64,000 bases of DNA from positions 39,990,001-40,054,000 of the forward strand of contig NW_027266297.1 of assembly GCF_022045235.1 (NCBI RefSeq), in the 5' to 3' direction. Shown piece after piece: positions 1,615-63,176 of the stretch. The translations under genes were made by a program, and so were the position numbers. This DNA is from Haliotis cracherodii. Its lineage: Eukaryota. The notes beneath the pieces were generated by a model. It searched no databases and was not told the origin of the DNA. It saw only the letters and a list, made by a program, of their open reading frames with translations. Within the stretch, counting starts at the first letter, position 1. The number at the start of each line of letters is the position of its first letter.

Positions 1615-4600
1615 GAATGGATCCATCTGTAAATATAGATTTATGAGTATCATACGTGCTTCGTACTTCATTATATTGCTGTTGATAAATTAGTTGATTT
1701 GTGTCGGATTTCTTGAGTTTACTTAATGTTAGGTCCACCTCTGGCTTCACTAACTGCCGTGTTGGAGAAGTGGACAGCCGAGTGGGGGCTATGGTTTCAA
1801 GATTGATTTAGGAGGCAGAAACATCAGATTGTATTCTTATTCCAAGTGGTGGAATAAGAGATGTCTTTTTATTGTAGAGATGTTTGTACAGAGGGTTAAA
1901 AACATAGTCATATGCTGGATTCGATTCAGTAGAACGTAATTTAGAGATATACTGTAAAGATAATTTAATGCGTCGTTGTTGAAGGGATGGCTCATCAGCC
2001 TCCACATACAAACTGTGAATAGGTGAAGTTCGGAAGGCTCCAAGACAAAGCCTCAGACCTTGGTGATGAATGGTGTCTAATGGTGTTTTAATTGTTCTTA
2101 CAAGCCCCAACATAGATGATGGAGCCGTAATCAAGTTAAGAGCGTATAGGAGCTCTGTATAGTTTTCTGATCCTCTCCCCACTTGGAATTAGAGACAACT
2201 TTTAACAAATCTAGAACTTTCAGACATTTATTCTTTAAGTATTTTATATGTGGTAAAAAGGTTAAATGATGAAAATTATACTAAAAAAATTCTCTTCTTT
2301 TACAACTTTAATGGGGGTGTTACCTAATGTTAGTTCTGGGTCATTGTGAGGTTTATATTTTCTGCAAAAGTGAATACAGTTAGTTTTAGATTTGGAAAAT
2401 TTAAAGCCACCACTTTTGGATTTTATTGGACACAATTGCATTTGCCTCTCAATCGTATGCATGTTCTTACCACGGCAAGAAACATTAAAGTCATCCAAAA
2501 ACAACGATCCATCAATTGAATCGTTTAAAACCTTTGCTAGACTGTTGATTTTAATGCTAAACAAAGTGACAGACAAAATACTGCCTTGTGGGATTATCCT
2601 GATTATAATGATCAGACAGGGTTGAACCCACGCGGACTTGAAATTGCCTGTCATTTAAAACTTGAATATAAATTGAGGCAGACGGCCTCGCAAACCAAAA
2701 TCATGTTAATCTTTTAAAATACCATACTTCCATGTAGTGTCATATGCTTTTTAAAGATCGAAAAAGATAGACACTGCATGTTGTTTGTTTATAATGGCAT
2801 TTTTAAGGAATGACTCCAATCGAACTAAATACTTTAAGGTACTTCGATTTTTACGAAAACCACATTGTATATTTGTGATTAAATTATTGGATTCTAAGTA
2901 CCAGGTTAATCTATTATTAACCATGCGTTCCATGGTTTTCCAAACGCAGCTAGTCAATGAAATGGGTCGATGATCACGTCCAGGCTTAGATATGGGAACA
3001 ATTATAGCTTCACGCCATGAAGAAGGAAATTCTCCTGACGTCCAGATTTTATCAAATATTATCAAAAGGGTTTCTAAACAGTATGGCGGTTAATGTTTTA
3101 AGAGTTGATAATGTATATTATCAGAACCCGCAGCAGTGTCATGAGCTTGTCCAAGTGCAGTTTGGAGCTCATGAATGGAAAAAACCTCATTGTAATCTTC
3201 CCCGTTATCTGTATTAGAATTTAAAGGTTTCTTTTCCTGAAATTGAGGGAAGAATGTTGAGCCAGAGTTTCACCAAGTTTATTTGTAATATCTAATTTAT
3301 CAGTTAACAATCGATCCCCATCTTTGAGATGGTGGCTGCTTGATTTAGTACCCTTACCTTTTATTTTCTGAATCATGCTCCATACCTTGGCCATAGGCAT
3401 CCGTGAATTTATCTTGGATACATAATTTTGCCAAGATTGGCGTTTGTTTTGTTTGAAAGTGCGCCGGGTTTTAGCATTTACATTTTGAATCTATTGAGAT
3501 TATGGACCATTGGATGGCGCCAAAGTTATTTTTCAGCTTTTTTCCGTGCCTTCCTAGCTAGTTTCGATCATTGTTGAACCATGGTTTACGTACATGTATG
3601 TGAGGATTTGAGGAGGACTTCGGAATACATTCATCAGCTAGTTTAGTAAGTTCATCAGAGAAAAGTTGTATAGGGTTGGGAACATCAATAAAAACTTCAG
3701 GTTTTAGTTTGTTAGAACAAGGACTTCAAATAACGCCCAGTTGGCTTTAGTAAAATTCCTTCGTGATGATGGAGGAACATCAGATGGTGTAACAGATTTT
3801 AAAATGGTAGGAAAATGGTAGGAAAATGGTAGGAGTGAGTGAGTGAGTATGGTCTTACGCCGCTTTTAGCAATATTCCAGCAATATCACGGCGGGGGACA
3901 CCAGAAATGGGCTTCACACATTGTACCCATGTCGGGAATCGAACCCGGGTCTTAGGCGTGACGAGCGAACGCTTTAACCACTAGGCTACCCGACCGCCCC
4001 GAAAATGGTAGAAAAATGGTCACTTCCACAGAGGTCATCGTGGACTGACCATTCAAATTCATGAAGTAAATCAGAATTTACAACTGACAAGTCCAGACAA
4101 GAGTATGTTCCAGTTGCAGGATGAAGATACGTGTGAGAACCATCATTAAAAGGCATAAATCGTTATTTAAGAAAAAATCCTCTAGTAATCTTCCTTTAGT
4201 GATGGTGACATTACTACCCCAAAGTGGGTTATGACCATTCAGATCTCCCATGATGACACAGGGCTAAGGGAGTTGGTCATACAGTGCCTGAAGATCAGAC
4301 TGTCGGGGAGAGTATGATGGTGGTACATACAAAGAACACAAAGTAAAAACAATATTTAATGTTACCCGCAATGCAACAGCCTGAAGAGGGGTATTGAGAG
4401 GAACAGGACTGTGAATGATGCCCTGCCTCACCAGAACAGAAGATCCTCCAGTTGCTTGATCACCCGGAGGGGAAAAGCTATGGTAAGAATCATACTGTCT
4501 TAAATCAAATTTATCAGTAGTTTTGAGGAAAGTTTCTTGTAAACAAAATGCAGATGGTTTGAAACCTTGAATAAAGGGCTGAAGATCAGTAAAATTGTTC

Positions 4601-6520
4601 CAAAGTCCTCTACAATTCCATTGTATTAATTTGGGAGAGGAACTCATGGGGGTTGAATTGGAGATCGTGAGCGGGGAGAAGGTCCTCTAGGCTGTAAAGG
4701 CAGCAATGGAGTGACCTCCATATCAAGAGGTTCAAAGGGTTTTGAACCTCCAGAGGGACTGTCAATGCTGAAGGCATCTTAATATGTGTAAGTACCTTGG
4801 ATCTTTTCTTTGTTGTTTCCTTTCCTTTCTGGAAAGTAGTGCATTGTTTTCTACCTCATTCACTGGCTCAGATTGAGTTTTAGGATCAGGGATAATGACT
4901 GAGGGAGCTTCAGGTTCTGGAAGAGGTTCAGTTTGTGATGTTGAAGAAGTTGATTTGGATGAAGTGCTGGTGTCGTCTACATCAATTTGATATAATGTTG
5001 TCTGCTCATTTGACACCCAGCTATGAGCTGTTTGGCATCCAGTGTCAACTTTGACAGACGAGGAGACTGCAGCAGAGTAGGTCAGAGAAGACGCAGGAGC
5101 TTTTGATTGACTTTCAAAAAGTGTCTTAGCTTCCGAGAACGAGATATCATTGGTATATTTGATTTTTAGGATTTAAGTCTGTGTCACAAAAGAGGGGCAT
5201 GATTTCGAGGAGGACATGTGGTCACCGCTGCAGTTTGCACATTTGATGTTAACTGTGCAGTCAGTGCCTTCATGCTGCTTACTGCAGCGGAACAAATTGC
5301 TGAATTACGACAGGACTAAGCCCCATGCCCGAACTGCTAACGGAGCGGATTTGGTATGTACACATTCACTCCGATGTTGAAATATCCAGCTTTGATGGAT
5401 GAAGGCAGTTTTGTTAAAGCAAATGTAAAAAGGTAGGTTTGGGTTTTAATAAGATTGTCACCATCTCCTCTCATAAATCGCTTCACAGATGGTACGCCTT
5501 GAGGCTTCAGCTCTGCTGCAATTTCCTCTTCTGACATGTCTGAAAGGCATTTGGCACGATCGCGTACAATGCTTCGACATGAATGTAGAGTTTTGTGCAC
5601 TGAGACAACAGTCTCAGTATTTGCAAAATGATGTGCTTTGAGAAGATTTAGAGATTGTTGTATTCTTGCACACTCCACAAGCCGTGAACCGGACCAGAGA
5701 CGAGTTACATTCTTGACAGAACCACATATTCCTTGAATAGATTTGGAAACGACGAAGGGGTTGATTTTGAGGGGTTCTCCATCAACGCCTTCAACTACCA
5801 GAAATCGTGGCCATGAGTCAACACTGAGAATAGATTCCTCATCAGAAGACACAACAGTGTCTGTATCAATATGCCTTCGCTTTGATTTCCCTTGAGAACC
5901 AGTGAACTGCCATAATGAAAGGAAATTTATTCAACAACCCTGCTCCCCAACAACGATGGAGTGTCAACAAGGACGGTGCCACAGTGGAAGCCAGGCTGCA
6001 ACACCAGGGCTACAGGGGTGTTATACTCCAGAAATAAAAACATCAATAGCTGTCGTTAATAAAAGGAAGAATGTCAGGCTGGTTCGGCCCATGGCACTTT
6101 CCTATAAAAACACAGAATTCAGCGATCCGTATCACCAGATTGGCCCATGAGCCACCGCCTTCTGGCATAGGACTCTAGGCAAAAAAATATTCAACACAAT
6201 CAAGGTCATCATATTTGGATCAAAACCTGTGTGATGAGATACGTCTAAATTATCAAGTATTCCATGCACAGGGCATGGCGTGACCAGCCGATTGATAGAA
6301 TCGGGCCCATTCTACCACCTGTCTAGATGAAGTTAGGGTCAAAGTGATGTGTTGGGCAAAAGGAACACTGTTCCTGGCTCCAGTGCCCTCAACCACCAGA
6401 ATACCTTCCTCCACCTACACAGGGGCGCAACCCACGGCAAACGGGTTGTCCAATTTGGTCGCCTTTTACGACCAGCAATGGGGTGCTGTGGACACATTCT
6501 ACCCCAGGTCCACGCCGGGG
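1615..6520 (-). mobile_element. Decayed non-LTR retrotransposon, I group (Nimb/I-like), 5' end present, 3' truncated
   Basis: ORF1 WPRFLVVE..INPFVVSKSI..PNPLR followed by CCHC knuckles (~4650-5930). ORF2 has an APE (LIQWNCRGL, CLQET), RT (RPISLTS, IPQGSILS, LFLDDF) and LRLCLGAFRTSP, and breaks off at the RNase H start IFTDGS (~1620). Many frameshifts; ~600 bp 5' UTR. Confidence 0.9.
3834..4000 (-). mobile_element. tRNA-headed SINE, family 1, nested in the LINE
   Basis: A box TAGCCTAGTGG, B box GGTTCGATTCC, (ACTC)n tail, TSD GAAAATGGTAG on both sides. Confidence 0.9.
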
Positions 6521-6789
6521 AAGGGCTATTAACGTTACCCAGCACTCAGCACCAGGAGGATGCTCTTCACGAGTGCCCGAAAGTTCAAGCTCACAGCTAA
6601 GATATAACAGACAAACGGGGGTGGAGGGTGGGTGTGTGTGTGGAGGGGAGGGGGGGAGGGGGGGGGGGGGGGGGGGGGGAGACAGCAAGGCGAGCATGTC
6701 AGATTAAACATTACAAACTCTCCTTGTGCCTTGCGTTGTCCTTACTTTTACAAGTATGGTAAATGTCTGTAAAAAAAAAATTAGGCTTG

Positions 6790-9962: not shown

Positions 9963-10407
9963 CAAGGAGACAACAACACGAATTCGGTCCAAATAAACCT
10001 TCACATACACTCCATTTAAAATGAAGTACAGTCAATCAAAGTCAGCAAAGTTACTTTCTAACAAATTCATCTGTAGTGTATATTCTACATATACAGTTGA
10101 TTAAACAGAAGAGTTTGAACACACCACGTCTGTGCACAAACACAGTTTCAAGCACTTGTGACCCATAAGTCCCATAAGATATTTATCCATCTTGGCGAAA
10201 TATCACTGGTGGTACGAATGAACGGTTCTCAACAGGCAAACCACAGTGACGTATTCTGCAAGAAATACAGTAAATATATCAACAACTGTAGACCTTTGCC
10301 AGGTGCTAGCAGTGCAATTGTGTCTGTGCTTCTGCCGTTTGGTGGAGCCAGGTGATAGCATTTAACAAACGTTTAGTCACTTGACACAGTGGGGACGAAG
10401 AAAACTA

Positions 10408-10670
10408 CCCGTGAAGATCCGGGGTAGAATAGGTCTTCAGCAACCTATGTTTTGCCGTAAAGGGCGACTGTGCTTGTTGTTAGAGGAGACGAACGGGATC
10501 GGGTGGTCAGGCTCGCGGACTTGGTTGTTGCATGTCATCGATCCCAATTGCGTAGATCGGTACTCATGATATCAGTCACTGGATTGTCTGGTCCAGACTC
10601 GATTATTTACAGACCGCCGTCATATAGCTGGAATATGGCTGAGTGCGGCGTTAAACCAACCAACCAACTA
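10408..10670 (+). mobile_element. SINE family 4, full length
   Basis: Starts CCCGTGAAGATCCGGGGTAGAATAGGTCTTCAGC and ends in (AACC)n; flanked by ACGAAGAAAAC direct repeats; same site in units B (31047) and C (39531). Confidence 0.9.
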
Positions 10671-10888
10671 ACGAAGAAAACATCTTCTCCCATGGGGACA
10701 CGAATTTGTTTTCCCTTTCTACACAGCTCATGGCACATATCAACAAAAATTTCAATTGACAATTAATAATGTACGATAACACCTGTACGCCGCAGTGACT
10801 AAGTTGACCGACAAAAAAGCTGACTCTTACCATCGTATGTAAATTACTTTAAACAGTCACAAATGAAGAAGAAGGTGAAATCTTTAGG

Positions 10889-13213
10889 TTAGACGTACCA
10901 TTGTAACAGCTTGAAGCCAAAGACCTGGACTTCACAAAACTGCAGAACATCATTACTGTCAATGGCTTTCTTCCCACTAAGCCTCAGGTAACGGCCAGTC
11001 AAGGGTGAAGTACACTGTATGGCAACTGTCTTGCCATGTTCTGTGACGGCTCCATTGTACATGTAACACAGTTGTGGACTGACACTAGGGTAGACAAGAG
11101 GGTCGTCTTGATACACGTCCAGAGCGAAGTCGTGAAGTCGTTCAGCTGAAAAACCAATGTTATGTCAAATGAACACTAGAAGCTTATAGAATATGTTCCC
11201 ACGATTATTTTCAAACTTTAGGCGGACCATTTGTTTTACTTCACACTTTAAATTCAGCCTATAAAATGAATGTTAAATTGTTCGATAGGCATTAGTTAGA
11301 AGGTGACGGATGACAAGGTAGACACAATTTTATGGATAACAACTTCTTTAATACTGTAAAAAGTGACGTTTCGGTATGGATCCTTATACCGTTGTCAAGC
11401 AAGAGTGAAAGAGGGACATTAGTACAGAATATATATAGTAGGTGGAGGATTAACAGTAGAGGATTAACAGTAACAACAATTGCATACATGAGTGGGATTA
11501 CATGGGTAGGTGTTGACAACAAAGGGATAATACTGTCACAACACAATTGACAGACAAATAAAAAACATGTTACAACTTCAATAAAAGGTGAATAGTATTT
11601 ATGAATATATGTTATATATTAGGTGTAAAACAAATATCGTGTCAAATGAACTGTTTATCTCACGACAACAGTCTTCTCTACTGGTGACACGGACTCCCAC
11701 AACGACGTATCTGTCCAGAAGGTCAACCTGCCACCAGGGTGAGAAATCACCATTGTCAACAGCAAAACAAGATCGAGATGACCATGTCGCTGTAACATCA
11801 CCGTCTACTGCAACACTAGGTTGGAACATGTCACGATGCCACACTGAACTTGCATTTGCTGGCTTATCTTTAGCAATATTAGGTAGAAGTTCCTCCACTA
11901 AAAGAAAAGTAACCCAGTTCTAATAACGTTGACATTTAATGGTTGGTAACATGTTTAGGAACGACATGGTTATGTGACATATGTTGAAAACATAAAACTA
12001 TTAGGCTTAAAAGTGTTGTAGTATCAAACAGAACTGAGATTATGTTGGCTTATTTGTAAGTAAAGAAACCAAACTAGATAACATGGGGCAGATTTCTATT
12101 TTAAGGAGCGGTAACAGACTACGGGAAGCATGAAAAGGTATGACTTCAACTTCAGCCAAAACCACAATTACTGTTTAAGTAAAACATTGTGCGGTCAGTA
12201 ACTACATGCACATTGCTTTAGCGGCGTGTCTATCATGTCTTTATGTGTCGGCGCATTCAGATTTTCACTAAAACTTTATTATGAATCATAACCCTATTTG
12301 TCACATGGAACAATGTTGGATAATATGGTTTTAGGTGTCTAGTTTCAGCCGAAGCAGATTACTGTTCTTATGTAATATGTACTCATCGTTATTTAACGTA
12401 CATACCGCACTGCACGATGCCATTTCTCATAGTACTGCATCTCTGCGTGTATCCACATAGGACGTTATGACAAGGACCAAGTGCTGTCTGTGGCATAGAA
12501 TAAAATATGACAAGTATAAGAATTATGCAGTCATATATGAAAATGTGACAATATGCCAGCTATAACGTCTAGTCATCTATATTTTTACACAAATATATTT
12601 CTGATATTTCTGAACCACAAAATGATTTTATCGTTATGATCATATCCATCAATATACCTATTATACCAGCATAGGTTTTTTTATTAAAAGTCTTTGAACA
12701 AAGTTAGTGCTATTAATTTCTTTATTCTGGCACATTATTTAAGTTACTCCCCAACAACTAAAACAGAGAAGCAGAACAAACTGACGACACTTCGTCATTG
12801 GAAAACATCTGCTTGTTTACCACCAGTTGAGCTAATATCATATCACCATTTAGACACAACATCGTAAGGAAGAAGTAGTTCCAGTGTAATCTTACCTTGT
12901 TCCAGCTCATAATTGAACTGTAAATGAAATCCTCTTCCCCCCCACCTTCCAGATATTGGAGGTCGTCAAATACATTTAGATGGCACGCTCTCCGGCCAAT
13001 CCCAAAATTGAAGGACTTGCATATTCCATATGAAACACATTCAGCGGCACAGGAGAACAGAGATGATTTCTCGATAATCTTAAACGTTGATCCCACTAGG
13101 TGTTTTCTATAATGAAGATCCGGCATACATGTATTTGTTACTGGTACCATACTCGAAAGTATCTGACAACAAATGTATATTATTTCCAATTGCCTAAAGT
13201 GATGAAAGAACAT
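10889..13213 (-). CDS. PAN/Apple + EGF-like + F-type lectin domain protein, copy A (~296 aa)
   Basis: Exons 13213-12896 (MFFHH..SCAAECVSYGICKSFNF..CHLN..WNK), 12487-12406 (TALGPCHNVLCGYTQRC..VQC), 11897-11664 (NIAKDKPANASS..AVDGD..PWWQVDL..SREDCC) and 11145-10889 (PERLHDF..GRYLRL..LQFCEVQVF). All introns GT-AG with compatible phases 0,1,1. Confidence 0.88.
11363..11400 (-). ncRNA. Minimal type I hammerhead ribozyme-like motif (Penelope-type, U3-A8 core)
   Basis: GC-UUGACAA-C-GGUAU-loop-AUACC-GAAACGUC; paralogs at 32862-32899 and 40487-40524. Confidence 0.55.
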
Positions 13214-13562
13214 GATTTCAATATAAACACGGTGACAGTGGTTGTCCAAAATGTGATGAAGGAATTAACATGAAAATATTCAACAACGCTGCACTTATGG
13301 TTCACCTCTGGCACTGCGTATACACAGGAATCATCAATGAAAATATATATAATGAGAATATATTGCATATAGATTAGACTATATCCAACACTTGAAAAAC
13401 AATCTTCATGAAATATACATCAAAGCTTCGACACAATGCATAAAGAAAGGTTCGCTGAGTCTTTAACTGGAGACGTCAATGGGTTGTTGTTTTTCCAAAT
13501 CATTGCATCGGTATTGTTTAGAGTCCACTTGATAGTTAGTTATTGATAATCAATACTTTGAA

Positions 13563-13747: not shown

Positions 13748-16700
13748 AATTCCCCTTTTCTTTTAAAATGACGAGCAAGCGCACTAATTAAAATATGGTT
13801 ATTTACACTGACATTGATTTAAAAATACTAAAATAAAGTCCACATTTTTTTTTCTTTTCCTTTTGTTGTTATTGTCACAAACATGATCAAAAATACAACT
13901 TTCACTAAATGTTCCATATTCACAAGTCTATGTTGTTGTGATCATGAGTTGTCCACTCTTGATGGTTTCAAGAAGCTTCATGTAAGGTGCGCCTTTCTTT
14001 GTTAGGCAATCTGACAACTGGTCACAGGATTGAACCCATACTACCTTAGAGATCTCACCTCTCTGTAGCATCTGTTTGATGCCTGCTATATCTATCCGGA
14101 GACGCTTCTCACTGACGGTCTTGGTGGAGTGCACATTTTCATAAAGTGACTTATTGTCAATATAACAGTCTATTGGCACAACATTTTTCTTAGATCCATT
14201 GTGCAGGATTTCACTCAAGAGATGGCCTAAATAACAAACAGAATCCAGACCATCCACCATGGCCAGGGCCTCGGCAGCAAGAGTACTCCTTACTACTCTT
14301 CGTATCTTTGTGGCTTTCCATGCAAGAGGACAGCATTTTCTGTCTTTTCCAATCAGAAAAATGATATATCCACCTGCACTGGACACTCCATCACTAAGAT
14401 TTCCATATGAGGCATCACTGAAAACGCCAAGTCTCAGATCACATGGCATACCCATGTTTTGGAAACGTATCTTGCAGTCATTAGACTTCAACTTTTTTAC
14501 AATTTTGTTGGCTTTTATCAGGTCTTCTACTGTTGGTTCTTTGATGCTTGTGCTCAGCTCCAGGGAATCAAACATGATGTCAGGCCTGGTTTGGTTAGCG
14601 ATCCAACTGATCTGGCCAATAATGCTTCGCATCTGTGTAATTTCCTTATCTGTCAGATGAGCACTTTTCTGAGAGGCTCGTGCTGTGCTTATAGGAATCT
14701 TTGTCAGATTCTCTACATAGGATAGCTGGTCCATGATAATGGTTCCTTCCTGTTGGTGAATCTCAAGTCCGATGTATCTAAATATTCCATGTGCTTGTTT
14801 GCTAATTTGAAACATCTGTCTCATTTCGTCAATCACTCTCTTCTCGAAGTATTCTGTTCCTGCCCAGATAAAGTCATCCACATGCATAAGAAATAGACCA
14901 GAAAGCTTGTCATTGTCATACCAGTAGAATAAGGCAAGGTCAATTTCTGATTATCTGCAATTCAGTTTCTTTAATTCTTCACAAACTCTAAAATACCAAG
15001 TTCTTGAAGCATCACACAGGCCATAAACACACTTTTCTAGTTTCCATAAGCACCCATCACCATCAGATTCTCTTGGAGGCTTCAGGAAGATTTCTCTGTC
15101 AATCTTTTTTCCTTGTAGGAAAGCAGCTTTAATGTCTATTGTTTTACACTGCCATGACATTAAGCATGCCATAGCCAAAACTGCCCTAAGTGTGTCTTTC
15201 CCAGCTGTTGGCGAATCACTCTGAATGTTTTGTTCTTCTTCAAACCCACGAGCTACCAGTCTTGCTTTCACTACTTTCTTGTTTCCATCCATCTTTTCTG
15301 TCACCACCCATCTAGTTGATATTGCTGACTGCCCTTGATCAGGTACTTCTTTATACACTTTGAATTGTTTCCAGTTTTCAAGCTCCAATGCCTTGGCGCG
15401 TGTGACATACTGATCATCATGTCGGGAGGATGCAATATTAACTTCTTCAATGTTGCTATCAGTTTCTGTTTCAAACTCCTGAACCTTTTGCCACTGACTG
15501 ACATCTTTTTCAAAATTCACTGATTTCATATCTGATTCACCTCTTTCACAGACATTAAACCGCCCACGGTATTTTCCAGTTGCTTTTCCTCCTCTACTAA
15601 TGACTTCCGCTTCCCTCCACATATGGTCTTCCTTGAGAAGATATTTCACCTTGTCTTTAGGCTTTGGTAGATTTGTTAAACCGTCACCTGTGTGATTTTC
15701 AACTACCTCAGGTGGGCTATTTCTCCTTGATGGACTCTGTTCATCCTCTGATAGCATGTCACTTTCCACCATCGCAGAACTAGTCCGACTACTCTTAGTC
15801 TTTTCAGTTTGAAGTGGCAATGCATCTGCAGAACTGCTGGTCTCTTTGTCAACACTGTCTTGGCTATCGGACTGTTCAAATTCTTGACCAATTTTTAACA
15901 GACGACATGTGGGGACTCTAACATAGGTACTTCCATGACGAATAAACACAGTTTTCCCATCTTGACCCAGCACCTTCCCGGGACCTTTCCATTGCTTTTC
16001 CTTCATGAAGTAAACTTTATCACCAGTTTGATAGACCGACTCTGATGGCCTGATGTTATGTCGTAAGGCCCGTCTGATTCTTTCAGATGATTCAGCTTCA
16101 ATGAAGGCTTTCCTTGCAGCATGTAGTGAGTTTAGGTGTTTTGCAAACATTTCACTTACAGTGGTACCTTCCAATGCAGGTGGTCTATCAACAAGAGTCG
16201 ATGGCAGGTTTGGGTTAGCTCCAAATACAAGCTGGTAAGGACTCCATCCATGCACCATCTGTAATGAGTTCTTCGCATTAATCGCCCACACCAGTGCAGT
16301 TTCTAGATCAAGTCGTGGGTTGTCAGTCATAAGTTTTGAGACACAGTCATCAACCACAGCATGGTTTCTTTCACAGAGCCCATTTTGCCAAGGGCTAAAG
16401 CTAGCTGTATTCATTACTTCCACATTCAGGTTTTCCGCCATGTCCCTATATTCTTCATTAGCGAATTCTCCACCATTGTCAGCTAGAAATTTCCTGGGTG
16501 TGCCTAGTCCACTCCCGACCCATAATTTCAAAATTTGATCAATGACGACCTCTGGGGTTTTCTTCCTTATGACAGCAGCCAGACTAAATCTTGTGGCCAT
16601 GTCTATGAGATGAAGGAAGTAGACACCGGTCTTCCAAAACTTCAGATCCATTGCCACCACTTCGTTAAACTTTGTCGCAAGAGGGAGAGAAACAACTGGT

Positions 16701-17512
16701 CGAGCTGGTGTCTTCTTGAATTTGAGACAAACATCACATTCCTGAGCTACCTCATCAACTAGTGCCTGATTAGTATCGTCCTTGATCCCAGCATCCTCCA
16801 GCAGCATCAAGAGTCGTCTACTTGATGGATGCGCAAACTGTCTATGCAATTTCAAAATCTTTTTTTTTTCTCTTGCCTTGACTGCATACTTTGGGAATAA
16901 AGGACCTCGAAGGTTTGATTCACGTGCATTGTAGAATGTAATATCGGGATACAATAGTGCCCTGACGACGTACATTGCAGGTTGATTTCCTTTCCAAAAA
17001 TCGAGGCTCTGTCATTTTCTAAATCCAGTACAACTTTGGCCGCTTTCATGGCTGGTTTTCCAAGTAGAAGAGGAATATCACTTTGTACCACATCAGTAGT
17101 GATTGTACAGTTGACACCTGCTATCTCACATGGGAAAGTTACTTTTGCAATAGATTTGAGGAGTCTTCCTCCCCCAAACTTGAAGATAGAGTCACTTTTG
17201 GTTCTATTTACTTGTCTCACTTTGTCATCCTCAAGTGTGTCTATATAGCAGTTCATCCAAGCTTCACCTGCAACTGTAGAACTGCATGCACTGTCCAAGA
17301 CTGCAGAGTTTAAAGATTCATTAACAAGAACCTGTAATTCCTCACCCTTATTACCAGTAAACAACACAAATTCTTCTTGTTTGTCTTGAAACTTTCTCTT
17401 TTCCATATTTTCATATGAGTCCGGGCAGTCCTTGATAAAGTGATAAACTGACTCACAAACCTTGCATCGAAGAGGACGTCCATCATGTCCAATTGGATTC
17501 TGTACTCGCTGG
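13563..17512 (-). mobile_element. Copia LTR retrotransposon, GalEa-like, copy 1 (3' LTR + pol, gag truncated)
   Basis: Order zinc knuckle, protease (VLDSACS), integrase (LHRQFAH..CDVC, AMDL, ADNGGEF, CERN), RT (KARLVARG, HVDDF), RNase H (FSDAS, KRLRID, SDCLTK). PPT next to the LTR; in-frame TAA at 14951 and a frameshift in the A-run near 16865. Confidence 0.95.
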
Positions 17513-17557
17513 CTGACACAACATCGTAAGGAAGAAGTAGTTCCAGTGTAATCTTAC

Positions 17558-17875
17558 CTTGTTCCAGCTCATAATTGAACTGTAAATGAAATCCTCTTCC
17601 CCCCCACCTTCCAGATATTGGAGGTCGTCAAATACATTTAGATGGCACGCTCTCCGGCCAATCCCAAAATTGAAGGACCTGCATATTCCATATGAAACAC
17701 ATTCAGCGGCACAGGAGAACAGAGATGATTTCTCGATAATCTTAAACGTTGATCCCACTAGGTGTTTTCTATAATGAAGATCCGGCATACATGTATTTGT
17801 TACTGGTACCATACTCGAAAGTATCTGACAACAAATGTATATTATTTCCAATTGCCTAAAGTGATGAAAGAACAT
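17558..17875 (-). pseudogene. Orphan duplicate of lectin gene exon 1 (PAN/Apple)
   Basis: Near-identical to 12896-13213 (one K>R change); donor GTAAG retained; intron joined to Copia sequence at 17512/17515. Confidence 0.85.
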
Positions 17876-18224
17876 GATTTCAATATAAACACGGTGACAG
17901 TGGTTGTCCAAAATGTGATGAAGGAATTAACATGAAAATATTCAACAACGCTGCACTTATGGTTCACCTCTGGCACTGCGTATACACAGGAATCATCAAT
18001 GAAAATATATATAATGAGAATATATTGCATATAGATTAGACTATATCCAACACTTGAAAAACAATCTTCATGAAATATACATCAAAGCTTCGACACAATG
18101 CATAAAGAAAGGTTTGCTGAGTCTTTAACTGGAGACGTCAATGGGTTGTTGTTTTTCCAAATCATTGCATCGGTATTGTTTAGAGTCCACTTGATAGTTA
18201 GTTATTGATAATCAATACTTTGAA

Positions 18225-18409
18225 TGTTAACTCAAAACTCCTTGTGGCTTCAATAACATTTAATCCACACCATTCAACATGACAGTACACAGCCATGTGC
18301 GCTTGTCTTGTCCGCGAGGGAGACACACAGACAGACTCCCTACGTCACATACAAAGTTAGTTTCCACAACTTGTGATATCGTTAGTTGCGTATCTGAGGG
18401 ATATTGACA
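18225..18409 (-). repeat. LTR (185 bp), copy 2
   Basis: Near-identical to 13563-13747. Confidence 0.88.
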
Positions 18410-21400
18410 AATTCCCCTTTTCTTTTAAAATGACGAGCAAGCGCACTAATTAAAATATGGTTATTTACACTGACATTGATTTAAAAATACTAAAATAAAG
18501 TCCACATTTTTTTTCTTTTCCTTTTGTTGTTATTGTCACAAACATGATCAAAAATACAACTTTCACTAAATGTTCCATATTCACAAGTCTATGTTGTTGT
18601 GATCATGAGTTGTCCACTCTTGATGGTTTCAAGAAGCTTCATGTAAGGTGCGCCTTTCTTTGTTAGGCAATCTGACAACTGGTCACAGGATTGAACCCAT
18701 ACTACCTTAGAGATCTCACCTCTCTGTAGCATCTGTTTGATGCCTGCTATATCTATCCGGAGACGCTTCTCACTGACGGTCTTGGTGGAGTGCACATTTT
18801 CATAAAGTGACTTATTGTCAATATAACAGTCTATTGGCACAACATTTTTCTTAGATCCATTGTGCAGGATTTCACTCAAGAGATGGCCTAAATAACAAAC
18901 AGAATCCAGACCATCCACCATGGCCAGGGCCTCGGCAGCAAGAGTACTCCTTACTACTCTTCGTATCTTTGTGGCTTTCCATGCAAGAGGACAGCATTTT
19001 CTGTCTTTTCCAATCAGAAAAATGATATATCCACCTGCACTGGACACTCCATCACTAAGATTTCCATATGAGGCATCACTGAAAACGCCAAGTCTCAGAT
19101 CACATGGCATACCCATGTTTTGGAAACGTATCTTGCAGTCATCAGACTTCAACTTTTTTACAATTTTGTTGGCTTTTATCAGGTCTTCTACTGTTGGTTC
19201 TTTGATGCTTGTGCTCAGCTCCAGGGAATCAAACATGATGTCAGGCCTGGTTTGGTTAGCGATCCAACTGATCTGGCCAATAATGCTTCGCATCTGTGTA
19301 ATTTCCTTATCTGTCAGATGAGCACTTTTCTGAGAGGCTCGTGCTGTGCTTATAGGAATCTTTGTCAGATTCTCTACATAGGATAGCTGGTCCATGATAA
19401 TGGTTCCTTCCTGTTGGTGAATCTCAAGTCCGATGTATCTAAATATTCCATGTGCTTGTTTGCTAATTTGAAACATCTGTCTCATTTCGTCAATCACTCT
19501 CTTCTCGAAGTATTCTGTTCCTGCCCAGATAAAGTCATCCACATGCATAAGAAATAGACCAGAAAGCTTGTCATTGTCATACCAGTAGAATAAGGCAAGG
19601 TCAATTTCTGATTATCTGCAATTCAGTTTCTTTAATTCTTCACAAACTCTAAAATACCAAGTTCTTGAAGCATCACACAGGCCATAAACACACTTTTCTA
19701 GTTTCCATAAGCACCCATCACCATCAGATTCTCTTGGAGGCTTCAGGAAGATTTCTCTGTCAATCTTTTTTCCTTGTAGGAAAGCAGCTTTAATGTCTAT
19801 TGTTTTACACTGCCATGACATTAAGCATGCCATAGCCAAAACTGCCCTAAGTGTGTCTTTCCCAGCTGTTGGCGAATCACTCTGAATGTTTTGTTCTTCT
19901 TCAAACCCACGAGCTACCAGTCTTGCTTTCACTACTTTCTTGTTTCCATCCATCTTTTCTGTCACCACCCATCTAGTTGATATTGCTGACTGCCCTTGAT
20001 CAGGTACTTCTTTATACACTTTGAATTGTTTCCAGTTTTCAAGCTCCAATGCCGCTTGACATACTGATCATCATGTCGGGAGGATGCAATATTAACTTCT
20101 TCAATGTTGCTATCAGTTTCTGTTTCAAACTCCTGAACCTTTTGCCACTGACTGACATCTTTTTCAAAATTCACTGATTTCATATCTGATTCACCTCTTT
20201 CACAGACATTAAACCGCCCACGGTATTTTCCAGTTGCTTTTCCTCCTCTACTAATGACTTCCGCTTCCCTCCACATATGGTCTTCCTTGAGAAGATATTT
20301 CACCTTGTCTTTAGGCTTTGGTAGATTTGTTAAACCGTCACCTGTGTGATTTTCAACTACCTCAGGTGGGCTATTTCTCCTTGATGGACTCTGTTCATCC
20401 TCTGATAGCATGTCACTTTCCACCATCGCAGAACTAGTCCGACTACTCTTAGTCTTTTCAGTTTGAAGTGGCAATGCATCTGCAGAACTGCTGGTCTCTT
20501 TGTCAACACTGTCTTGGCTATCGGACTGTTCAAATTCTTGACCAATTTTTAACAGACGACATGTGGGGACTCTAACATAGGTACTTCCATGACGAATAAA
20601 CACAGTTTTCCCATCTTGACCCAGCACCTTCCCGGGACCTTTCCATTGCTTTTCCTTCATGAAGTAAACTTTATCACCAGTTTGATAGACCGACTCTGAT
20701 GGCCTGATGTTATGTCGTAAGGCCCGTCTGATTCTTTCAGATGATTCAGCTTCAATGAAGGCTTTCCTTGCAGCATGTAGTGAGTTTAGGTGTTTTGCAA
20801 ACATTTCACTTACAGTGGTACCTTCCAATGCAGGTGGTCTATCAACAAGAGTCGATGGCAGGTTTGGGTTAGCTCCAAATACAAGCTGGTAAGGACTCCA
20901 TCCATGCACCATCTGTAATGAGTTCTTCGCATTAATCGCCCACACCAGTGCAGTTTCTAGATCAAGTCGTGGGTTGTCAGTCATAAGTTTTGAGACACAG
21001 TCATCAACCACAGCATGGTTTCTTTCACAGAGCCCATTTTGCCAAGGGCTAAAGCTAGCTGTATTCATTACTTCCACATTCAGGTTTTCCGCCATGTCCC
21101 TATATTCTTCATTAGCGAATTCTCCACCATTGTCAGCTAGAAATTTCCTGGGTGTGCCTAGTCCACTCCCGACCCATAATTTCAAAATTTGATCAATGAC
21201 GACCTCTGGGGTTTTCTTCCTTATGACAGCAGCCAGACTAAATCTTGTGGCCATGTCTATGAGATGAAGGAAGTAGACACCGGTCTTCCAAAACTTCAGA
21301 TCCATTGCCACCACTTCGTTAAACTTTGTCGCAAGAGGGAGAGAAACAACTGGTCGAGCTGGTGTCTTCTTGAATTTGAGACAAACATCACATTCCTGAG

Positions 21401-30624: not shown

Positions 30625-31535
30625 CAAGGAGACAACAACACGCATTTGGTCCAACTAAACCTTCACATACACTCCATTTACATGAAATACAAAGTACAGT
30701 CAATCAAAGTCAGCAAAGTTAATTTCTAACAAATTCATATGTAGTGTATATTCTACATTTACAGTTGATTAAAGTCTTATGACTCAGATTGCACAAACAC
30801 AGTATCAAGCATTTTAGACTCATAAGTTCCCATATATCCATCTTGGCGCAATATCACTGGTGGTACGAATGAACGGTTCTCAACAGGCAAACCACAGTGA
30901 CGTATTCTGCAAGAAATACAGTAAATATATCAACAACTGTAGACCTTTACCAGGTGCAAGCTGTGCCCCTATTTCTGTGCTTCGAGCCAGGTGATAGCAT
31001 TTAACAAACGTTTAGTCATTTGACACAGTGGGGACGAAGAAAACAACCCGTGAAGATCCGGGGTAGAATAGGTCTTCAGCAACCAGTGCTTGCCATAAAA
31101 GGCGACTATGCTTGTCGTAAGAGGCGACTGACTGGATCGGATGGTCAGGCTCGCTGTCTTGGTTTGATGCATGTCATCATAGATCGATGCCCATGATATC
31201 AGTCACTGGATTATCTGGTCCAGACTCGATTTTTTACACAAACCGCCGTCATGTAGCTGGAATAATGCTGAGTGCGGCGTTAAACAACAAACCAACAAAC
31301 CAAGCAACGAAGAAAACATCTTCTCTCATGTGGACACGAATTTGTTTACCCTTTCTACATACACTCATTTCAGATTCAATAACAATTTCAATTGACAATT
31401 AATAATGTACGATAACACTTCTACGTCGAAGTGAGTAAGTTCCGAATGGTTGACCGACAAAAATGCTGACTCTTACCATCTTATGTCAAATTACTTTAAA
31501 CAGTCACAAATGAAGTAGAATATGAAATCTTTAGG

Positions 31536-34500: not shown

Positions 34501-34733
34501 CGCCCAAATCCAAAATTGAAGGACCTGCATATTCCATATGAAACACATTCAGCGGCACAGGAGAAAAGAGATGATTTCTCGATAATCTTAAACGTTGATC
34601 CCACTAGGTGTTTTCTATAATGAAGACCCGGCATACATGTATTTGTTACTGGTACCATACTCGAAAGTATCTGACAACAAATGTATATTATTTCCAATTG
34701 ACCAAAGTGATGAAAGGTTTTGTTGGTCATCAT
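31536..34733 (-). CDS. PAN/Apple + EGF-like + F-type lectin domain protein, copy B (~300 aa)
   Basis: Exons 34733-34404, 33971-33890, 33408-33175, 31792-31536; open frame, GT-AG introns. Confidence 0.88.
31880..32110 (+). mobile_element. Tc1-like transposase C-terminal relic in a copy-B-specific intronic insertion
   Basis: SSVRRRVGAFIDARGGHARY resembles the Tc1 C-terminus; insertion bounded by repeated GGGGCGGACCATTTGTTTT (31861 and 32721). Confidence 0.55.
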
Positions 34734-39089: not shown

Positions 39090-40019
39090 CAAGGAGATAA
39101 CAACACGAATTCGGTCCAACTAAACCTTCTCATCATTCCATTTTAAATGAAATACAAAGTACAGTCAATCAAAGTCAGCAAAGTTACTTTCAAACAAATT
39201 CATCTGTCGTGTATATTCTACATATACAGTTGATTAAACAGAAGAGTTTGAACACACCACGTCTGATTGCACAAACACAGTATCAAGCACTTGTGACCCA
39301 TAAGTCCCATAAGATATTTATCCATCTTGGCGGAATATCACTGGTGGTATGAATGAACGGTTCTCAACAGGCAAACCACAGAGACGTATTCTGCAAGAAA
39401 TACAGTAAATATATGAACAACTGTAGACCTTTACCAGGTGCAAGCAGTGTCCCTAATTCTGTGCTTCGAGTCAGGTGAAAGCATTTAACAAACGTTTAGT
39501 CATTTGACACAGTGGGGACGAAGAAAACAACCCGTGAAGATCCGGGGTAGAATAGGTCTTCAGCGACCTATACTTGCCGTAAAGGGCGACTGTGATTGTC
39601 GTTAGAGGCGACTAAGGGATCGGGTGGTCAGGCTCGCTGACTTGGTTGTTTCATGTCATCGATCCCAATTGCGTAGATCGGTACTCATGCTATCAGTCAC
39701 TGGATTGTCTGGTCCAGACTCGATTATTTACAGACCACCGTCATGTAGCTGGAATATTGCTGAGTGTGGCGTTAAACAACAAACCCACCAACCCACCAAC
39801 GAAGAAAACATCTTCTCCCATGTGGACACGAATTTGTTTACCCTTTCTACATACACTCAAAGCACACATCGACAACAATTTCAATTTACAATTAATAATG
39901 TACGATAACACTTGTACGTTGCAGTGAGTAAGTTCCGATTGGTTAACCGATAAAAAACTAAATCTTATGGTAAATTACATTAGACAGTCACTAATGAAGA
40001 AAAATATGAAATCTTTAGG

Positions 40020-50521: not shown

Positions 50522-50790
50522 GACCCGTGAAGATTCCGGGTTAGAATAGGTCTTCAGCAACCCATGCATGCCGTAAAAGGCGACTATGCTTGTCGTAAAA
50601 GGCGACTAACGGGATCGGGTGGTCAGGCTCGCTGACTTGGTTGATACATGTCATCGGTCCCAATTGCGTGGATCGATGCTCATGATATTAATCACTGGAT
50701 TGTCTGGTCCAGACTCGATTATTTACAGACCGCCGTCATATAGCTGGAATATTGCTGAGTGCGGCGTCAATCAACAAACCAACCAACCAT
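50522..50790 (+). mobile_element. SINE family 4, young insertion in a coding exon
   Basis: Perfect 12-bp TSD CCTAAAGTGATG (50510-50521, 50791-50802); empty site visible in copy A. Confidence 0.95.
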
Positions 50791-60300: not shown

Positions 60301-63176
60301 CAAGTGCGTGGATCGATGCTCATGATGTCAGTCACTAGATTGTCTGGTCCAGACAATTGTGCTACAAGTCATTGTGACTGAAGCCATGTACCATAACCAA
60401 TGGTAAGTGTTGTTCCTGGCTGTTTGCAGGCATCAGACGACCCACTACACCAACCAGCTGGCCAAGGAGACCAACACCCATCTGCAGGAACTGGCTCATC
60501 TACCTGCCCCAAGCAACCCATCAGAACAGGTCAGCTCCTAGTGTACCAAGTCTATGCTCTTGTAATCAGAGAGCGTCCATCGCTCTGTCATCCAATACTG
60601 TAAGCAGTAGGTTAATGTAGTAATGGGTGGGGACAGGGTCAGAACAGGTCAGCTCCTAGTGTACCGTGAAGATCCGGGTTCGAATAGGTCTTCAGCCACC
60701 CATCTTGCTATAAAAGGCGACTATGTTTGTCATAAGAGGCGACTAACGGGATCGGCTGGTCGTGCTCGCAGACTTGGTGGATGCATGTCATTGTATCCCA
60801 ATTGCGTCCAGGCTCGATTATTAACAGATTGTCATCATATGGCAGGAATATTTCTGAATGGCATTAAACAAAGAAACAAACATCAACCAAGGCTTTTAAC
60901 CAAATGCCTTGAATTGGCGTTTTGAAATTATTTTTGCCATATTGATGCTTTATTTCTGAATGTGGCATTAAACAACATACAAACAAATTTCAGAGACAGT
61001 TTAAGATGCAAAAGGAGCGTCTGACGGAGGAGTTCAGCAATGCACTGAAGAACTTCCAGACTGCCCAGCGCACGGCCGCGGAGAAGGAAAAGGCCAGCAT
61101 GGCACGGGCGCGTGCACATTCCGGAACAGCAGCCATGAAGGTGGGTGCATCTATGAAGGCTTCGGCTGCATGATGAGGCACAGTGACTGGTTAATGATGT
61201 GTGCTTCTCACGCACTTGCTAGAAATAATACAACTTTGATCAGTGTGTTTTAATGGAGAAAATATTTAATTTGATTTGCATTTAGGGGTGGATGATATTT
61301 CATATTTCTTAATTTTCAGTCTCCATTTGATGACTTCCCATCACCAACAGAGGATCAGAGTATGGCCCCCGGGTAGGTGACTATATCTCAGATGAAAGAC
61401 ACTCGTAAACTCTGTTGACAAAAGGAGCTGTAAGCTTGCTGATGCAGCATTAAGTAGTTACATCACTCACTCAAGTATTGTGTCTCTTGCATTGGTATCT
61501 ATGGTGAGGGATCAAACACTGATATCTGCAGTGAGGGATCAAACACTGATATCTTTGGTGAGGGATCAAACATTGGTATCTTTGGTGAGGGATCAAACAC
61601 TGGTATCTTTGGTGAGGGATCAAACACTGGTATCTTTGGTGAGGGATCAAACACTGGTATCTTTGGTGAGGGATCAAACACTGGTATCTTTGGTGAGGGA
61701 TCAAACACTGGTATCTTTGAGAAGGGATCAAACACTAGTATCTTTGTTGAGGGACCAAACAGTGGTATCAGCAGTGAGGGATCAAACACTGGTATCTTTG
61801 CTGAGGGATCAAACACTGGTATCTGCGGTGAGGGATCAAACACTGGTATCTGTAGTGAGGGATCAAACTTTGGTATCTGCGGTGATGGATCAAACACTGG
61901 TATCTTTGGTGAGGGATCAAACACTGGTATCTTTGGTGAGGGATCAAATACTTGTATCTTTGACCAAGGATCAAACACTGGTATCTGTGGTGAGGGATCA
62001 AGTACTGGTATCTTTGGTGAGGGATCAAACACTGGTATCTTTGGTGAGGGATCAAACACTGGTATCTTTGGTGAGGGATCAAACACTGGTATCTTTGGTG
62101 AGGGATCAAATACTGGTATCTTTGGTCCAGGATCAAACACATGCTTATGTTTGAGTCACATTTAATGTTCATGACCTGACTGACTGTAATGTGTTGATTT
62201 CCAGCTTCTCTCAAACCAAAGCTGTGCTGCAGATGGAGCAGGATGTGGATCTGGATCTGCTTAGGGAGAGGGAGGATGCCATCAAGAAACTAGAGGTCAG
62301 CAACAATTTTTGATACTTAATGAATAAGGTAGGGGTGGTCAGGTAGCCTAGTGGTTAAAGCGCACGATTGTCACGCAGAAGACCCGGGTTCGATTCCCGA
62401 CATGGGTACAATGTGTGAAGCCCATTTCTGGTGTCCCCCGCAGTGATATTGCTGGAAAATTGCTAAAAGTGACGTAAAACCACACTCACTCACTCATGAA
62501 TAAAGGTAGGAAGTGCCTGGCGCTATAGTTTAAGTCACCGCCATCCGTTGTGCAGAGTTACGTCCCTTAATGAACCAGGAATACAAACCCCAGATTCAAC
62601 ATGATTTTATTTCTAGGTTGTCGGCAATATACACTTGCTGATGGGTATCACGAAAGTGGAAATTCTCTAAAATCTGTTTTCTTCCTTCATCAAGCTCAGC
62701 TATTACTAAGATACTGGTCAAAGTGGCATTACATCAAATCCACTGTTCAGGCACTATAACCTGAGACCTGACTAGATTCCGTGCCTTTGCCATGGAAGTT
62801 ACACGTCTATGACCGTCTGTACTTAGGGCTCACTTCCCACATTATGTTGAAATGGCGAAATATACCTGAAATGTAGAAAATACTGACAAGAGCATAAAAT
62901 AACATTCACTTACACATGCCTTTGATAAATAGTAAGTTGAAGCCCATGTCTTGGTCATTGCTCATGTGTACACTGATGTCACTAAGCAGGGGCTTGGTTG
63001 TAATCATAATAAGAACATTTCTACATCAACTGAAATGAAATCCCTGCTACAATCTTTGTGACTGCTCATGTTACTTTCTGACTCCAACCTTTGTACTTTC
63101 CAGCACGACATCATGGATGTAAATCAGATCTTCAAAGACCTGGGCATGTTGGTACACGAACAAGGAGAGGTTCTGG
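57325..63176 (+). CDS. STX7: Syntaxin-7/12-like endosomal Qa-SNARE (partial; continues beyond the window)
   Basis: Exons 57325-57406, 59308-59379 (RLAQSVGNNIQKITQN), 59638-59707, 60430-60529 (YTNQLAKET), 60994-61140 (QKERLTEEFSNALKNFQ), 61320-61372, 62205-62295 (LLREREDAIKKLE) and 63104-63176 (DIMDVNQIFKDLGMLVHEQG). GT-AG introns, phases consistent; STX7 vs STX12 orthology not resolvable by eye. Confidence 0.92.
58828..59105. repeat. 21-bp minisatellite (~13 units), intronic
   Basis: GCCTGCCAAGATGCAG(C/T)ATGT repeated head to tail. Confidence 0.95.
60665..60890 (+). mobile_element. SINE family 4 (diverged)
   Basis: CGTGAAGATCCGGGTT.GAATAGGTCTTCAGC...AAAAGGCGACTATG. Confidence 0.8.
61485..62140. 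repeat. 27-bp minisatellite (~24 units), intronic
   Basis: GGTGAGGGATCAAACACTGGTATCTTT repeated head to tail. Confidence 0.95.

What the first reader, a model, noticed from the sequence alone, without database searches (positions are those of the whole stretch)
6445..6520. LINE 5' end and the non-tRNA SINE head share a covarying structured RNA motif
Seen: the LINE starts (minus strand) CCCCGGC-GTGGAC-CTGGGGTAGAATGT-GTCCAC-AGCACCCCATTGCT-GGTCG-TAAAAGG-CGACC-AA. SINE family 4 (more than 10 copies, e.g. 10408, 39531, 50522) starts CCCGT-GAAGAT-CCGGGGTAGAATAG-GTCTTC-AGCAACCCATGCTT-GTCG-TAARAGG-CGAC-TA. The first stem changes sequence but keeps its pairing, while the loop core GGGGTAGAAT is conserved and can pair with the downstream ACCC (possible pseudoknot). 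The SINE carries the second hairpin as a 22-nt tandem duplication and has no pol III A/B boxes. Established: some SINEs are bipartite LINE 5'+3' derivatives, and some LINE 5' ends carry ribozymes. Inference: family 4 is a bipartite derivative of this LINE group and the motif is a functional RNA (5' processing, promoter or RT recognition). I could not fit it to the HDV, hammerhead or twister consensus.
Basis: partly seen in the sequence, partly recalled or inferred. Interest (0 to 1): 0.7.

Follow-up and report, generated by a model that had tools for sequence, protein, structure and literature searches.

The report
Ribozyme stacked on folded retrotransposon head
The stretch matches a published 'LINE-promoter' head shared by this jumping gene and a very abundant short repeat; its stems change in matched pairs across distant families, so it is predicted to fold as RNA and likely sets and shields the RNA's front end, and in this family it lies just behind a predicted self-cutting HDV-like ribozyme that marks the element's real start.

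Summary
The shared motif is real, but the LINE does not start there. It starts 58 nt upstream (window 6577) with a minimal HDV-like ribozyme fold whose G+1 abuts the target-site duplications; 54 of 57 young-stem copies sampled through the motif alone begin there, 2 begin exactly at the motif. The window's own ribozyme copy is broken. The SINE has a related I-group tail but an unrelated middle, so it is not a simple bipartite copy of this family. Best mechanism (0.4): a non-catalytic RNA module that sets and protects the 5' end; promoter-plus-fold is close behind (0.33). The scan noted ribozyme-headed retroposons before on other DNA.

The parts
6520..6577 (-). Minimal HDV-like ribozyme fold, true 5' end of the LINE (G+1 = 6577): P1 GGCACTC/GAGTGCT, P2 GAAGAGC/GCTCTTC, P3 ACC/GGT, P1.1 CC/GG, no P4, J4/2 GCTAAT. 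This copy is broken: catalytic-C position 6532 reads T, P3 1 of 3 pairs, P2 6 of 7.
6449..6519 (-).
   Evidence: model hit 80.8 bits at 6449-6518
6488..6513 (-). H1: stem GTGGAC/GTCCAC with loop holding GGGGTAGAAT; stem covaries across families
6474..6487 (-).
   Evidence: cols 73/87: UA 24, CG 7, AU 4, UG 1, other 4 of 40
6457..6473 (-). H3: GGTCG-TAAAAGG-CGACC, nearly invariant (also fixed by my search patterns)
5914..6448 (-). Rest of the LINE 5' UTR
4650..5913 (-). ORF1 (gag-like; CCHC knuckles in intact copy L037), broken by frameshifts and stops here
1618..4647 (-). ORF2 (AP endonuclease, RT, start of RNase H), broken and 3'-truncated here; interrupted by a tRNA-headed SINE at about 3829-4000
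10406..10669 (+). LP-headed SINE, full length, TSD ACGAAGAAAAC; same insertion repeated at 31047 and 39531
31045..31310 (+). Duplicate of the 10406 SINE insertion (end approximate)
39529..39795 (+). Duplicate of the 10406 SINE insertion (end approximate)
50522..50790 (+). LP-headed SINE, full length, independent insertion, starts GACCCGTG, 12-nt TSD
60661..60900 (+). LP-headed SINE with whole head (end approximate)

Best explanation
The motif is the LP head shared by I-group LINEs, RTE-like LINEs and SINEs; it is predicted to fold on the transcript into three hairpins and likely works, without cutting, as a module that sets and shields the RNA's 5' end, while in this LINE family a predicted HDV-like ribozyme 58 nt upstream makes the actual 5' end. 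Inferred steps: elements are read through from outside promoters; in LP-first elements (the SINE, the older subfamily, the RTE-like families) 5'-to-3' decay would stop a few bases before H1 and give the sharp start; in the young subfamilies self-cleavage would leave a 5'-OH end that such decay does not attack, so the ribozyme is inherited and the LP start is only a minor end. Shown: the boundaries, the copy counts, the covariation of H1 and of the H2 outer pair. Predicted, not shown: folding, cleavage, kissing loops, the exonuclease stop.
For: 5' ends: TSD found in 13 of 20 full-length loci; it ends exactly before G+1 in 9, overlaps the element's own G's in 3, and is 2 nt off in 1 (two of the 9 are one duplicated insertion). 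In two samples drawn by motif-only patterns (first 30 of 242; first 30 of 85), 54 of 57 young-stem copies start at G+1, 2 exactly at the LP start, 1 inside the ribozyme; the other 3 of 60 have the older GGGAC/GTCCC-type stem and no ribozyme. None of 11 non-array old-stem hits has a ribozyme (17 hits, 6 in tandem arrays). The SINE starts 2 nt before CCCGTG in 9 of 12 copies with a TSD (33 examined). Covariation: own arms of H1 pair better than swapped arms, best of 720 permutations for 6 lineages (-8.9 vs -5.6 +/- 1.0 kcal/mol); on 41 distinct sequences 94.7% of cells pair, 6 of 14 pairs change on both sides, 0 of 500 shuffles reach the score, slid controls 23-59%. Family-fixed G-U pairs (SINE H1 U-G; H2 col 75/85 CG 27, UG 12) point to the sense strand. 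A model built on 10 own-genome sequences scores 37 of 46 metagenome loci at 29-68 bits and the other 9, plus 2 prokaryote hits, at 18 or less or not at all. The head occurs on elements with different proteins and on a non-coding SINE, which favours an intrinsic or host-directed role. PMC11331408 (abstract, section 6): a stable 5' fold raises R2 template use, with 5' degradation proposed as the limit. PMC6765202 (passages): RTE and baggins elements with ribozymes are described as promoterless.
Against: No experiment and no read evidence on RNA ends. De novo RNAalifold on the same 42 sequences finds only H3, not H1 or H2, and single-sequence minimum-energy folds often prefer other pairings. The alignment counted was fitted to my structure; cells count sequences, not events; one lineage (L085) lacks H2 and paired poorly in the swap test. 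The loop G-run is missing in 9 of 42 copies and the 3' G-run in 18 of 42. My one paper search for an exonuclease-blocking RNA in a retrotransposon listed a single general review, so I have no precedent. Sharp starts at a purine and a SINE with at least 38,990 copies and no pol III boxes are what an internal promoter would also give. In PMC11331408 section 6 the catalytic mutant lost function too, so fold alone was not enough there.
Confidence: 0.4

Rival explanations
1. Dual module like trypanosome Pr77: the LP DNA is an internal promoter (invariant AGAAT, CCCA and H3 letters as factor sites) that starts at its own +1, and the RNA fold is a second, protective role.
For: Proposed from position by PMC4758252 (section 10); precedent Pr77/L1TcRz (PMC3383444 abstract); SINE without A/B boxes at 38,990+ copies starting GA; 2 of 57 young-stem copies start exactly at the LP +1.
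Against: If LP fired at its own +1 in ribozyme-bearing copies, progeny should mostly lose the ribozyme, yet 54 of 57 keep it; this needs the cleaved RNA to be far more productive. A promoter alone does not explain paired changes in H1 and H2.
Confidence: 0.33
2. The fold is a binding or translation element (ORF1p/ORF2p or host protein, second-strand or 5'-junction formation, IRES-like), and 5' ends are set by something else.
For: R2 precedent of protein binding and IRES-like use of the 5' region (PMC6765202 passages); invariant H3 loop.
Against: The head is shared by elements with different proteins and by a non-coding SINE; it does not explain why LP-first elements start sharply at it.
Confidence: 0.14
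3. The motif is itself a new, slow self-cleaving ribozyme cutting at its 5' boundary.
For: Sharp starts without upstream conservation; minor LP +1 class; likeness to the HDV-like 3' part.
Against: The upstream ribozyme is kept in 54 of 57 copies; the base aligned with the catalytic C is A or G in 11 of the alignments that span it or the gap closes over it (read by eye); no Rfam ribozyme match at E up to 10 over the motif in 11 loci.
Confidence: 0.08
4. The pairing is incidental: shared ancestry plus G/C-rich runs, no selected structure.
For: RNAalifold recovers only H3; few independent lineages.
Against: Swap test best of 720; three Watson-Crick pair types at the H2 outer pair in an ungapped region.
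Confidence: 0.05

Closest known systems
LP domain / LP-SINEs (Hdi_LP, Hmi_LP, Lsa_2, pectinoid MESC heads; Nimb-17_LMi, I-3_DR, RTE-9_CPB 5' ends), Matetovici et al. 2016, PMC4758252 (read: passages, section 10, supplement file 4 parts 1 and 3, rows of files 2 and 3; Fig. 3 itself not held)
   Same: ~70-bp LINE-derived head at the 5' end of non-tRNA SINEs and of Nimb and RTE LINEs; TSDs; short tandem-repeat tail; published length 255 bp against about 265-270 here with a 22-nt duplication. The scallop 'Nimb-17 homology' segment in Fig. S2 has the same order of C-run, GGG...AAGAAT, CCCCATTGC and TCGTAAGAGGCGAC (compared by eye).
   Different: The paper proposes a promoter and gives no structure for LP, calls the partner LINE unidentified, and has LP as the extreme 5' end. 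Here LP covaries as RNA, an I-group LINE in the same genome has a homologous tail, and in young subfamilies LP sits behind an HDV-like ribozyme.
HDV-like ribozymes at LINE 5' ends (R1, R2, R4, RTE, Ingi/L1Tc, LOA/baggins as listed in PMC5786205 passages and PMC6765202 passages; Rfam RF02682)
   Same: Double-pseudoknot order P1-P2-P3-P1.1, G1-U wobble, C in J4/2, cleavage G at the element's first base.
   Different: 58 nt with no P4; heads an I-group element with ORF1 and RNase H, a group (I/Nimb) not in those lists; activity untested; below the Rfam gathering score.
Pr77/L1TcRz of L1Tc and NARTc (PMC3383444, abstract and opening only)
   Same: Short conserved 5' module shared by autonomous and non-autonomous elements.
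   Different: Pr77 is promoter and ribozyme in one 77-mer; here ribozyme and shared head are two stacked modules and the SINE carries only the second.
Bipartite non-autonomous LINEs (Kojima 2018, PMC5786205; abstract, passages, one supplement search)
   Same: 5' part and 3' tail both traceable to LINEs.
   Different: Middle ~130 nt not from this LINE; tail stem letters differ; the LP core was not found in that paper's supplement, so its RTE-derived SINE bodies seem to be another segment.

Membership tests
LP domain / LP-SINE | Head homologous to the first ~70 bp of Nimb-17_LMi | tested here: met
   By-eye match to the 'Nimb-17 homology' segment of Fig. S2; the Repbase entry and the Hdi_LP consensus (Fig. 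3) were not available
LP domain / LP-SINE | No tRNA head or pol III boxes | tested here: met
LP domain / LP-SINE | TSDs and short tandem-repeat 3' end | tested here: met
   TSD in 12 of 33 full-length copies, (CAAA/CCAA)n ends
LP domain / LP-SINE | Promoter activity (proposed, not shown in the paper) | not testable with these tools
   needs reporter or CAGE data
HDV-like ribozyme (6577-6520 segment) | Nested double pseudoknot P1, P1.1, P2, P3 | tested here: met
   My descriptor fits L037, 0 of 20,000 dinucleotide shuffles, 1 chance hit in 128,000 window starts; 41 of 67 gapless copies keep all elements; window copy fails
HDV-like ribozyme (6577-6520 segment) | Catalytic C in J4/2 | tested here: met
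   66 of 67 copies; the exception is the window copy, C to T, the change described as inactivating in PMC10879173 passages
HDV-like ribozyme (6577-6520 segment) | Cleavage G at the element's first base | tested here: met
   TSD ends at G+1 in 9 of 13, compatible in 12 of 13; contig loose ends pile at 304-306 of L037 in run X19 (table cut)
HDV-like ribozyme (6577-6520 segment) | Rfam gathering score | tested here: not met
   RF02682 full-length 26-29 bits against 44, E 0.04-0.2, in 3 of 4 loci
HDV-like ribozyme (6577-6520 segment) | Covariation of P1/P2 | tested here: inconclusive
   One sequence family only; 8 variant hits were point mutants
HDV-like ribozyme (6577-6520 segment) | Self-cleavage in vitro | not testable with these tools
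   bench assay needed
   No hit over the motif at gathering or at E up to 10 in 4 + 7 loci
Bipartite non-autonomous LINE (for the SINE) | 3' tail from a LINE 3' end | tested here: met
   47-nt alignment, 6 of 2000 shuffles; same stem-bulge-stem-9-nt-loop fold with other stem letters
Bipartite non-autonomous LINE (for the SINE) | Only 5' and 3' parts of one LINE family | tested here: not met
   Middle unrelated (32 of 200 shuffles); no blastn hit of the SINE tail to the LINE ends
I group LINE (Nimb clade) | ORF1 with CCHC knuckles; ORF2 with AP endonuclease, RT, RNase H | tested here: met
   (that this layout marks the I group is recalled)
I group LINE (Nimb clade) | RT tree placement in Nimb | not tested
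   Homolog names give no clade; no labelled references held

The most novel reading that the evidence does not exclude
LP is a new class of retrotransposon RNA: the 3' two-thirds of an HDV-like ribozyme that lost its 5' strands and catalytic C, refolded with two added hairpins into a kissing-loop structure, and now works as an exonuclease roadblock that gives promoterless LINEs and SINEs of several animal phyla their exact 5' ends; this LINE family later regained a working ribozyme in front of it.
Probability: 0.2. Interest if true: 0.82.

Novelty: new variant of a known kind. Interest (0 to 1): 0.52.

Why it matters
How LINEs and SINEs without a small-RNA head get a precise, stable 5' end is open, and the 2016 paper left LP's function untested. 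A 70-nt structure with defined compensatory pairs, next to a 58-nt ribozyme in the same family with and without it, makes promoter, cleavage and exonuclease-stop models directly testable. It would also extend HDV-like ribozymes to I/Nimb-type LINEs and offer compact 5' modules of the kind shown to matter for R2-based gene insertion.

Tried and rejected
Rfam: nothing over the motif. Viral contigs: 0 hits with two patterns. Prokaryote genomes: 2 chance hits. Metagenome scan: 58 loci, of which 11 look like chance hits in bacterial DNA; 12 near-duplicates were left out of the model search (46 of 58 given). A SINE variant with a weakened stem proved to be a dead copy carried in a larger repeat and was dropped; L056, L182, L187, L216, L217 were left out of alignment A1. 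MAFFT alignment A1 misplaced the H1 5' arm and was not counted. Tree of the 5' UTR: unresolved, so gain versus loss of the ribozyme is not shown by it; one row (L153) was probably mis-extracted. Sequencing runs: no RNA holder listed; small-RNA reads gave 0, 26 and 4 mostly antisense reads, nothing on 5' ends; contigs from guessed-RNA runs of other coded organisms cover ribozyme and LP but cannot show starts. Cap-derived extra G at the SINE start: not separable from a templated GA. Likeness of the SINE head to the tRNA-SINE T-arm: not significant (462 of 2000 shuffles). Pfam gave no family for three ORF pieces behind the metagenome motifs or for ORF1. Ruminski et al. 2011 is not held, so its element list is known to me only through PMC5786205 and PMC6765202.

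Full report
Setting. The window lies at G000:C34:39,990,001-40,054,000 of a 1.18-Gb genome, likely an abalone-like gastropod (inference from the match to the published Haliotis LP-SINE description). The finding is in the 5' region of a decayed LINE on the minus strand. An intact relative (L037) has ORF1 with CCHC knuckles and a 1231-aa ORF2 with AP endonuclease, RT and RNase H, the layout I recall for the I group; the Nimb label is inferred from the head and was not tested by a tree (one search gives no clade names).

Observation. The letters and both stems are as described. The SINE head is colinear with the LINE motif. Two corrections matter. First, there is a middle hairpin (H2, AGCA/TGCT) that puts the C-run in a loop, so any pairing with the GGGG loop would be a kissing interaction. 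Second, the LINE does not begin at the motif. The 30 best genomic matches extend about 58 nt further 5' and then diverge sharply.

The real 5' end. Those 58 nt (6577-6520) fit a minimal HDV-like ribozyme: P1 with a G-U first pair, P2, P3, P1.1, no P4, and GCUAAU in J4/2. Rfam RF02682 aligns end to end from the first base in 3 of 4 loci, below its gathering score. My descriptor fits L037 and 0 of 20,000 shuffles. Of 67 gapless copies 41 keep all five elements and 66 keep the catalytic C; the exception is the window copy. The core pattern occurs 662 times in the genome, control 0. Target-site duplications were found in 13 of 20 full-length loci and end exactly before G+1 in 9, overlap the element's G's in 3 and are 2 nt off in 1. 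In two samples chosen by motif-only patterns, 54 of 57 young-stem copies start at G+1, 2 start exactly at the motif and 1 inside the ribozyme. An older, more decayed subfamily with a GGGAC/GTCCC stem starts at the motif and has no ribozyme (0 of 11 non-array hits). The tree did not resolve the order of events; gain is favoured only because the published Nimb and RTE relatives, the SINE and the metagenome elements all start at the motif.

What the motif is. Matetovici et al. 2016 (PMC4758252; read: passages, section 10, parts of the supplement) describe LP-SINEs in Haliotis, Littorina and oysters with a ~70-bp head shared with Nimb-17_LMi, I-3_DR and RTE-9_CPB, guess a promoter, compare it to Pr77 and leave the partner LINE unidentified. 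Their Fig. S2 scallop head has the same landmarks in the same order (by eye). The Haliotis consensus is in Fig. 3, which is not held, so identity with Hdi_LP is inferred from landmarks, length and ends. The sequence sharing is therefore known.

Structure. A metagenome scan gave 58 loci, 47 with the motif in eukaryote-like DNA. Many continue after about 200 nt into an endonuclease-like frame with no ORF1 (Atlas lead PF03372 on 22% of the nearest named cluster; Pfam itself silent); 'RTE-like' is my recalled label. L054 continues into a 5' UTR like this LINE's. H1 reads TGGAC/GTCCA, TGGAA/TTCCA and GGGAC/GTCCC in three LINE subfamilies, AAGAT/GTCTT in the SINE, GCAGGC/GCCTGC in L054 and GTGGGT/ATCCAC in L105. 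Own arms pair better than swapped arms (best of 720 permutations for 6 lineages; p 1e-5 for 15 related families). On the ungapped own-genome alignment 3 of 6 H1 pairs change on both sides; on the 42-sequence model-fitted alignment 5 of 6 H1 pairs and the H2 outer pair do. Against this, RNAalifold unaided finds only H3, L085 lacks H2, and H3, CCCA and TGC were fixed by my pattern. From the paper's supplement, read by eye: the scallop head keeps H1 as GCAGGTA/TACCTGC, and the snail family Pan_3 has loops GGGCC and GGACC, which would keep 4 of 5 loop-loop pairs with two double changes. That single case is the only covariation hint for the pseudoknot. The loop G-run is present in 33 of 42 copies and the 3' G-run in 24 of 42.

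A post hoc observation. The first hairpin region of all 15 family consensuses aligns in one register to the ribozyme's 3' two-thirds, from L3 to P2b. The summed score is reached by 1 of 5000 shuffles, also when only the 11 non-own-genome families are used, and by 0 of 602 real 58-mers of the LINE. The families are related, so this is one observation, not fifteen. It fits descent of LP from a 5'-truncated HDV-like ribozyme, or growth of this ribozyme from a tandem LP copy. An earlier unchecked scan note (e1-8598283) raised a decayed HDV-like head for an LP-like repeat in another genome.

The SINE. It starts GA-CCCGTG, has at least 38,990 copies, and ends in a ~45-nt tail homologous to the LINE's 3' end with the same fold but other stem letters. 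A tRNA-headed SINE in the window shares that tail. The middle is unrelated. So an I-group LINE is its likely partner, but it is a three-part element, not a bipartite copy of this family.

Mechanism. Shown: boundaries, counts, covariation. Inferred: function. The ribozyme likely releases the young LINE RNAs from read-through transcripts, as described for other clades (PMC6765202, passages). LP cannot be an efficient 5'-cutting ribozyme or a dominant fixed-start promoter in those subfamilies, because the upstream 58 nt are inherited in 54 of 57 copies; yet it marks a precise end in 2 of 57 and in all LP-first families. A folded module that stops 5'-to-3' decay accounts for both without further assumptions, since a 5'-OH cleavage product would escape such decay (established knowledge, recalled). 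I give it 0.4, against 0.33 for promoter plus fold, which has precedent but needs a strong advantage of cleaved RNA.

Novelty. Paper searches that found no structure for LP, no HDV-like ribozyme on a Nimb element and no exonuclease-blocking RNA in a retrotransposon: (0 papers with all four terms). The library lacks most subscription journals, Repbase Reports and Ruminski 2011, and file 1 of the 2016 supplement could not be searched; any of these may hold part of this. PMC11481361, PMC10085705 and PMC10879173 were seen as passages only; PMC11331408 as abstract and section 6; PMC3185411 and PMC8501958 as search listings only. Verdict: new variant of a known kind, interest 0.52.

Noticed in passing
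L140 (= L113), G000:C1:81350548 onward, +: A short element made of the old-stem LP head, about 70 nt, and the LINE's own 3' tail: a truer bipartite derivative than the abundant SINE.
   Followed up: no
L240, G000:C3:30908087 region: A LINE 3' tail with (TCAC)n runs directly into an LP +1 start with no ribozyme: head-to-tail junction or insertion into a tail.
   Followed up: no
L143/L144, L148-L151, L161-L172: The LP head forms tandem arrays with units of about 48-69 nt, from both LINE and SINE heads.
   Followed up: no
G000:C2:20.8-21.75 Mb, C3:30.3-31.1 Mb, C6:4.2-4.9 Mb: Dense clusters of this LINE, many copies nested in each other; could be piRNA-cluster-like or reflect a target preference.
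   Followed up: no
window 3829-4000 (-): tRNA-headed SINE inserted in the LINE's endonuclease region; shares the I-group tail (7 of 2000 shuffles).
   Followed up: partly
window about 10200-10800, 30800-31430, 39300-39930: Segmental or tandem duplication carrying the same SINE insertion three times; similar small ORFs recur at 12758-13264, 34266-34916, 41911-42453 and 50066-50605.
   Followed up: partly
window 13928-22874 (-): Two partly overlapping LTR-retrotransposon-like coding blocks in integrase-RT-RNase H order (copia-like by recall), broken by frameshifts.
   Followed up: no
L037 3' UTR (about 5900-6500): The LINE 3' UTR holds conserved blocks between AT-rich variable stretches across subfamilies, suggesting further structured elements.
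   Followed up: no
window 6440-6270 (-): The 5' UTR behind LP has further conserved blocks, also present in metagenome locus L054 from another organism.
   Followed up: no
runs X1, X2, X7, X9 laid on L037:311-397: A high-depth contig in guessed-RNA runs of other coded organisms holds the ribozyme and half of LP, then continues into unrelated sequence.
   Followed up: no
window 61396-62289: 27-nt tandem repeat open in several frames.
   Followed up: no
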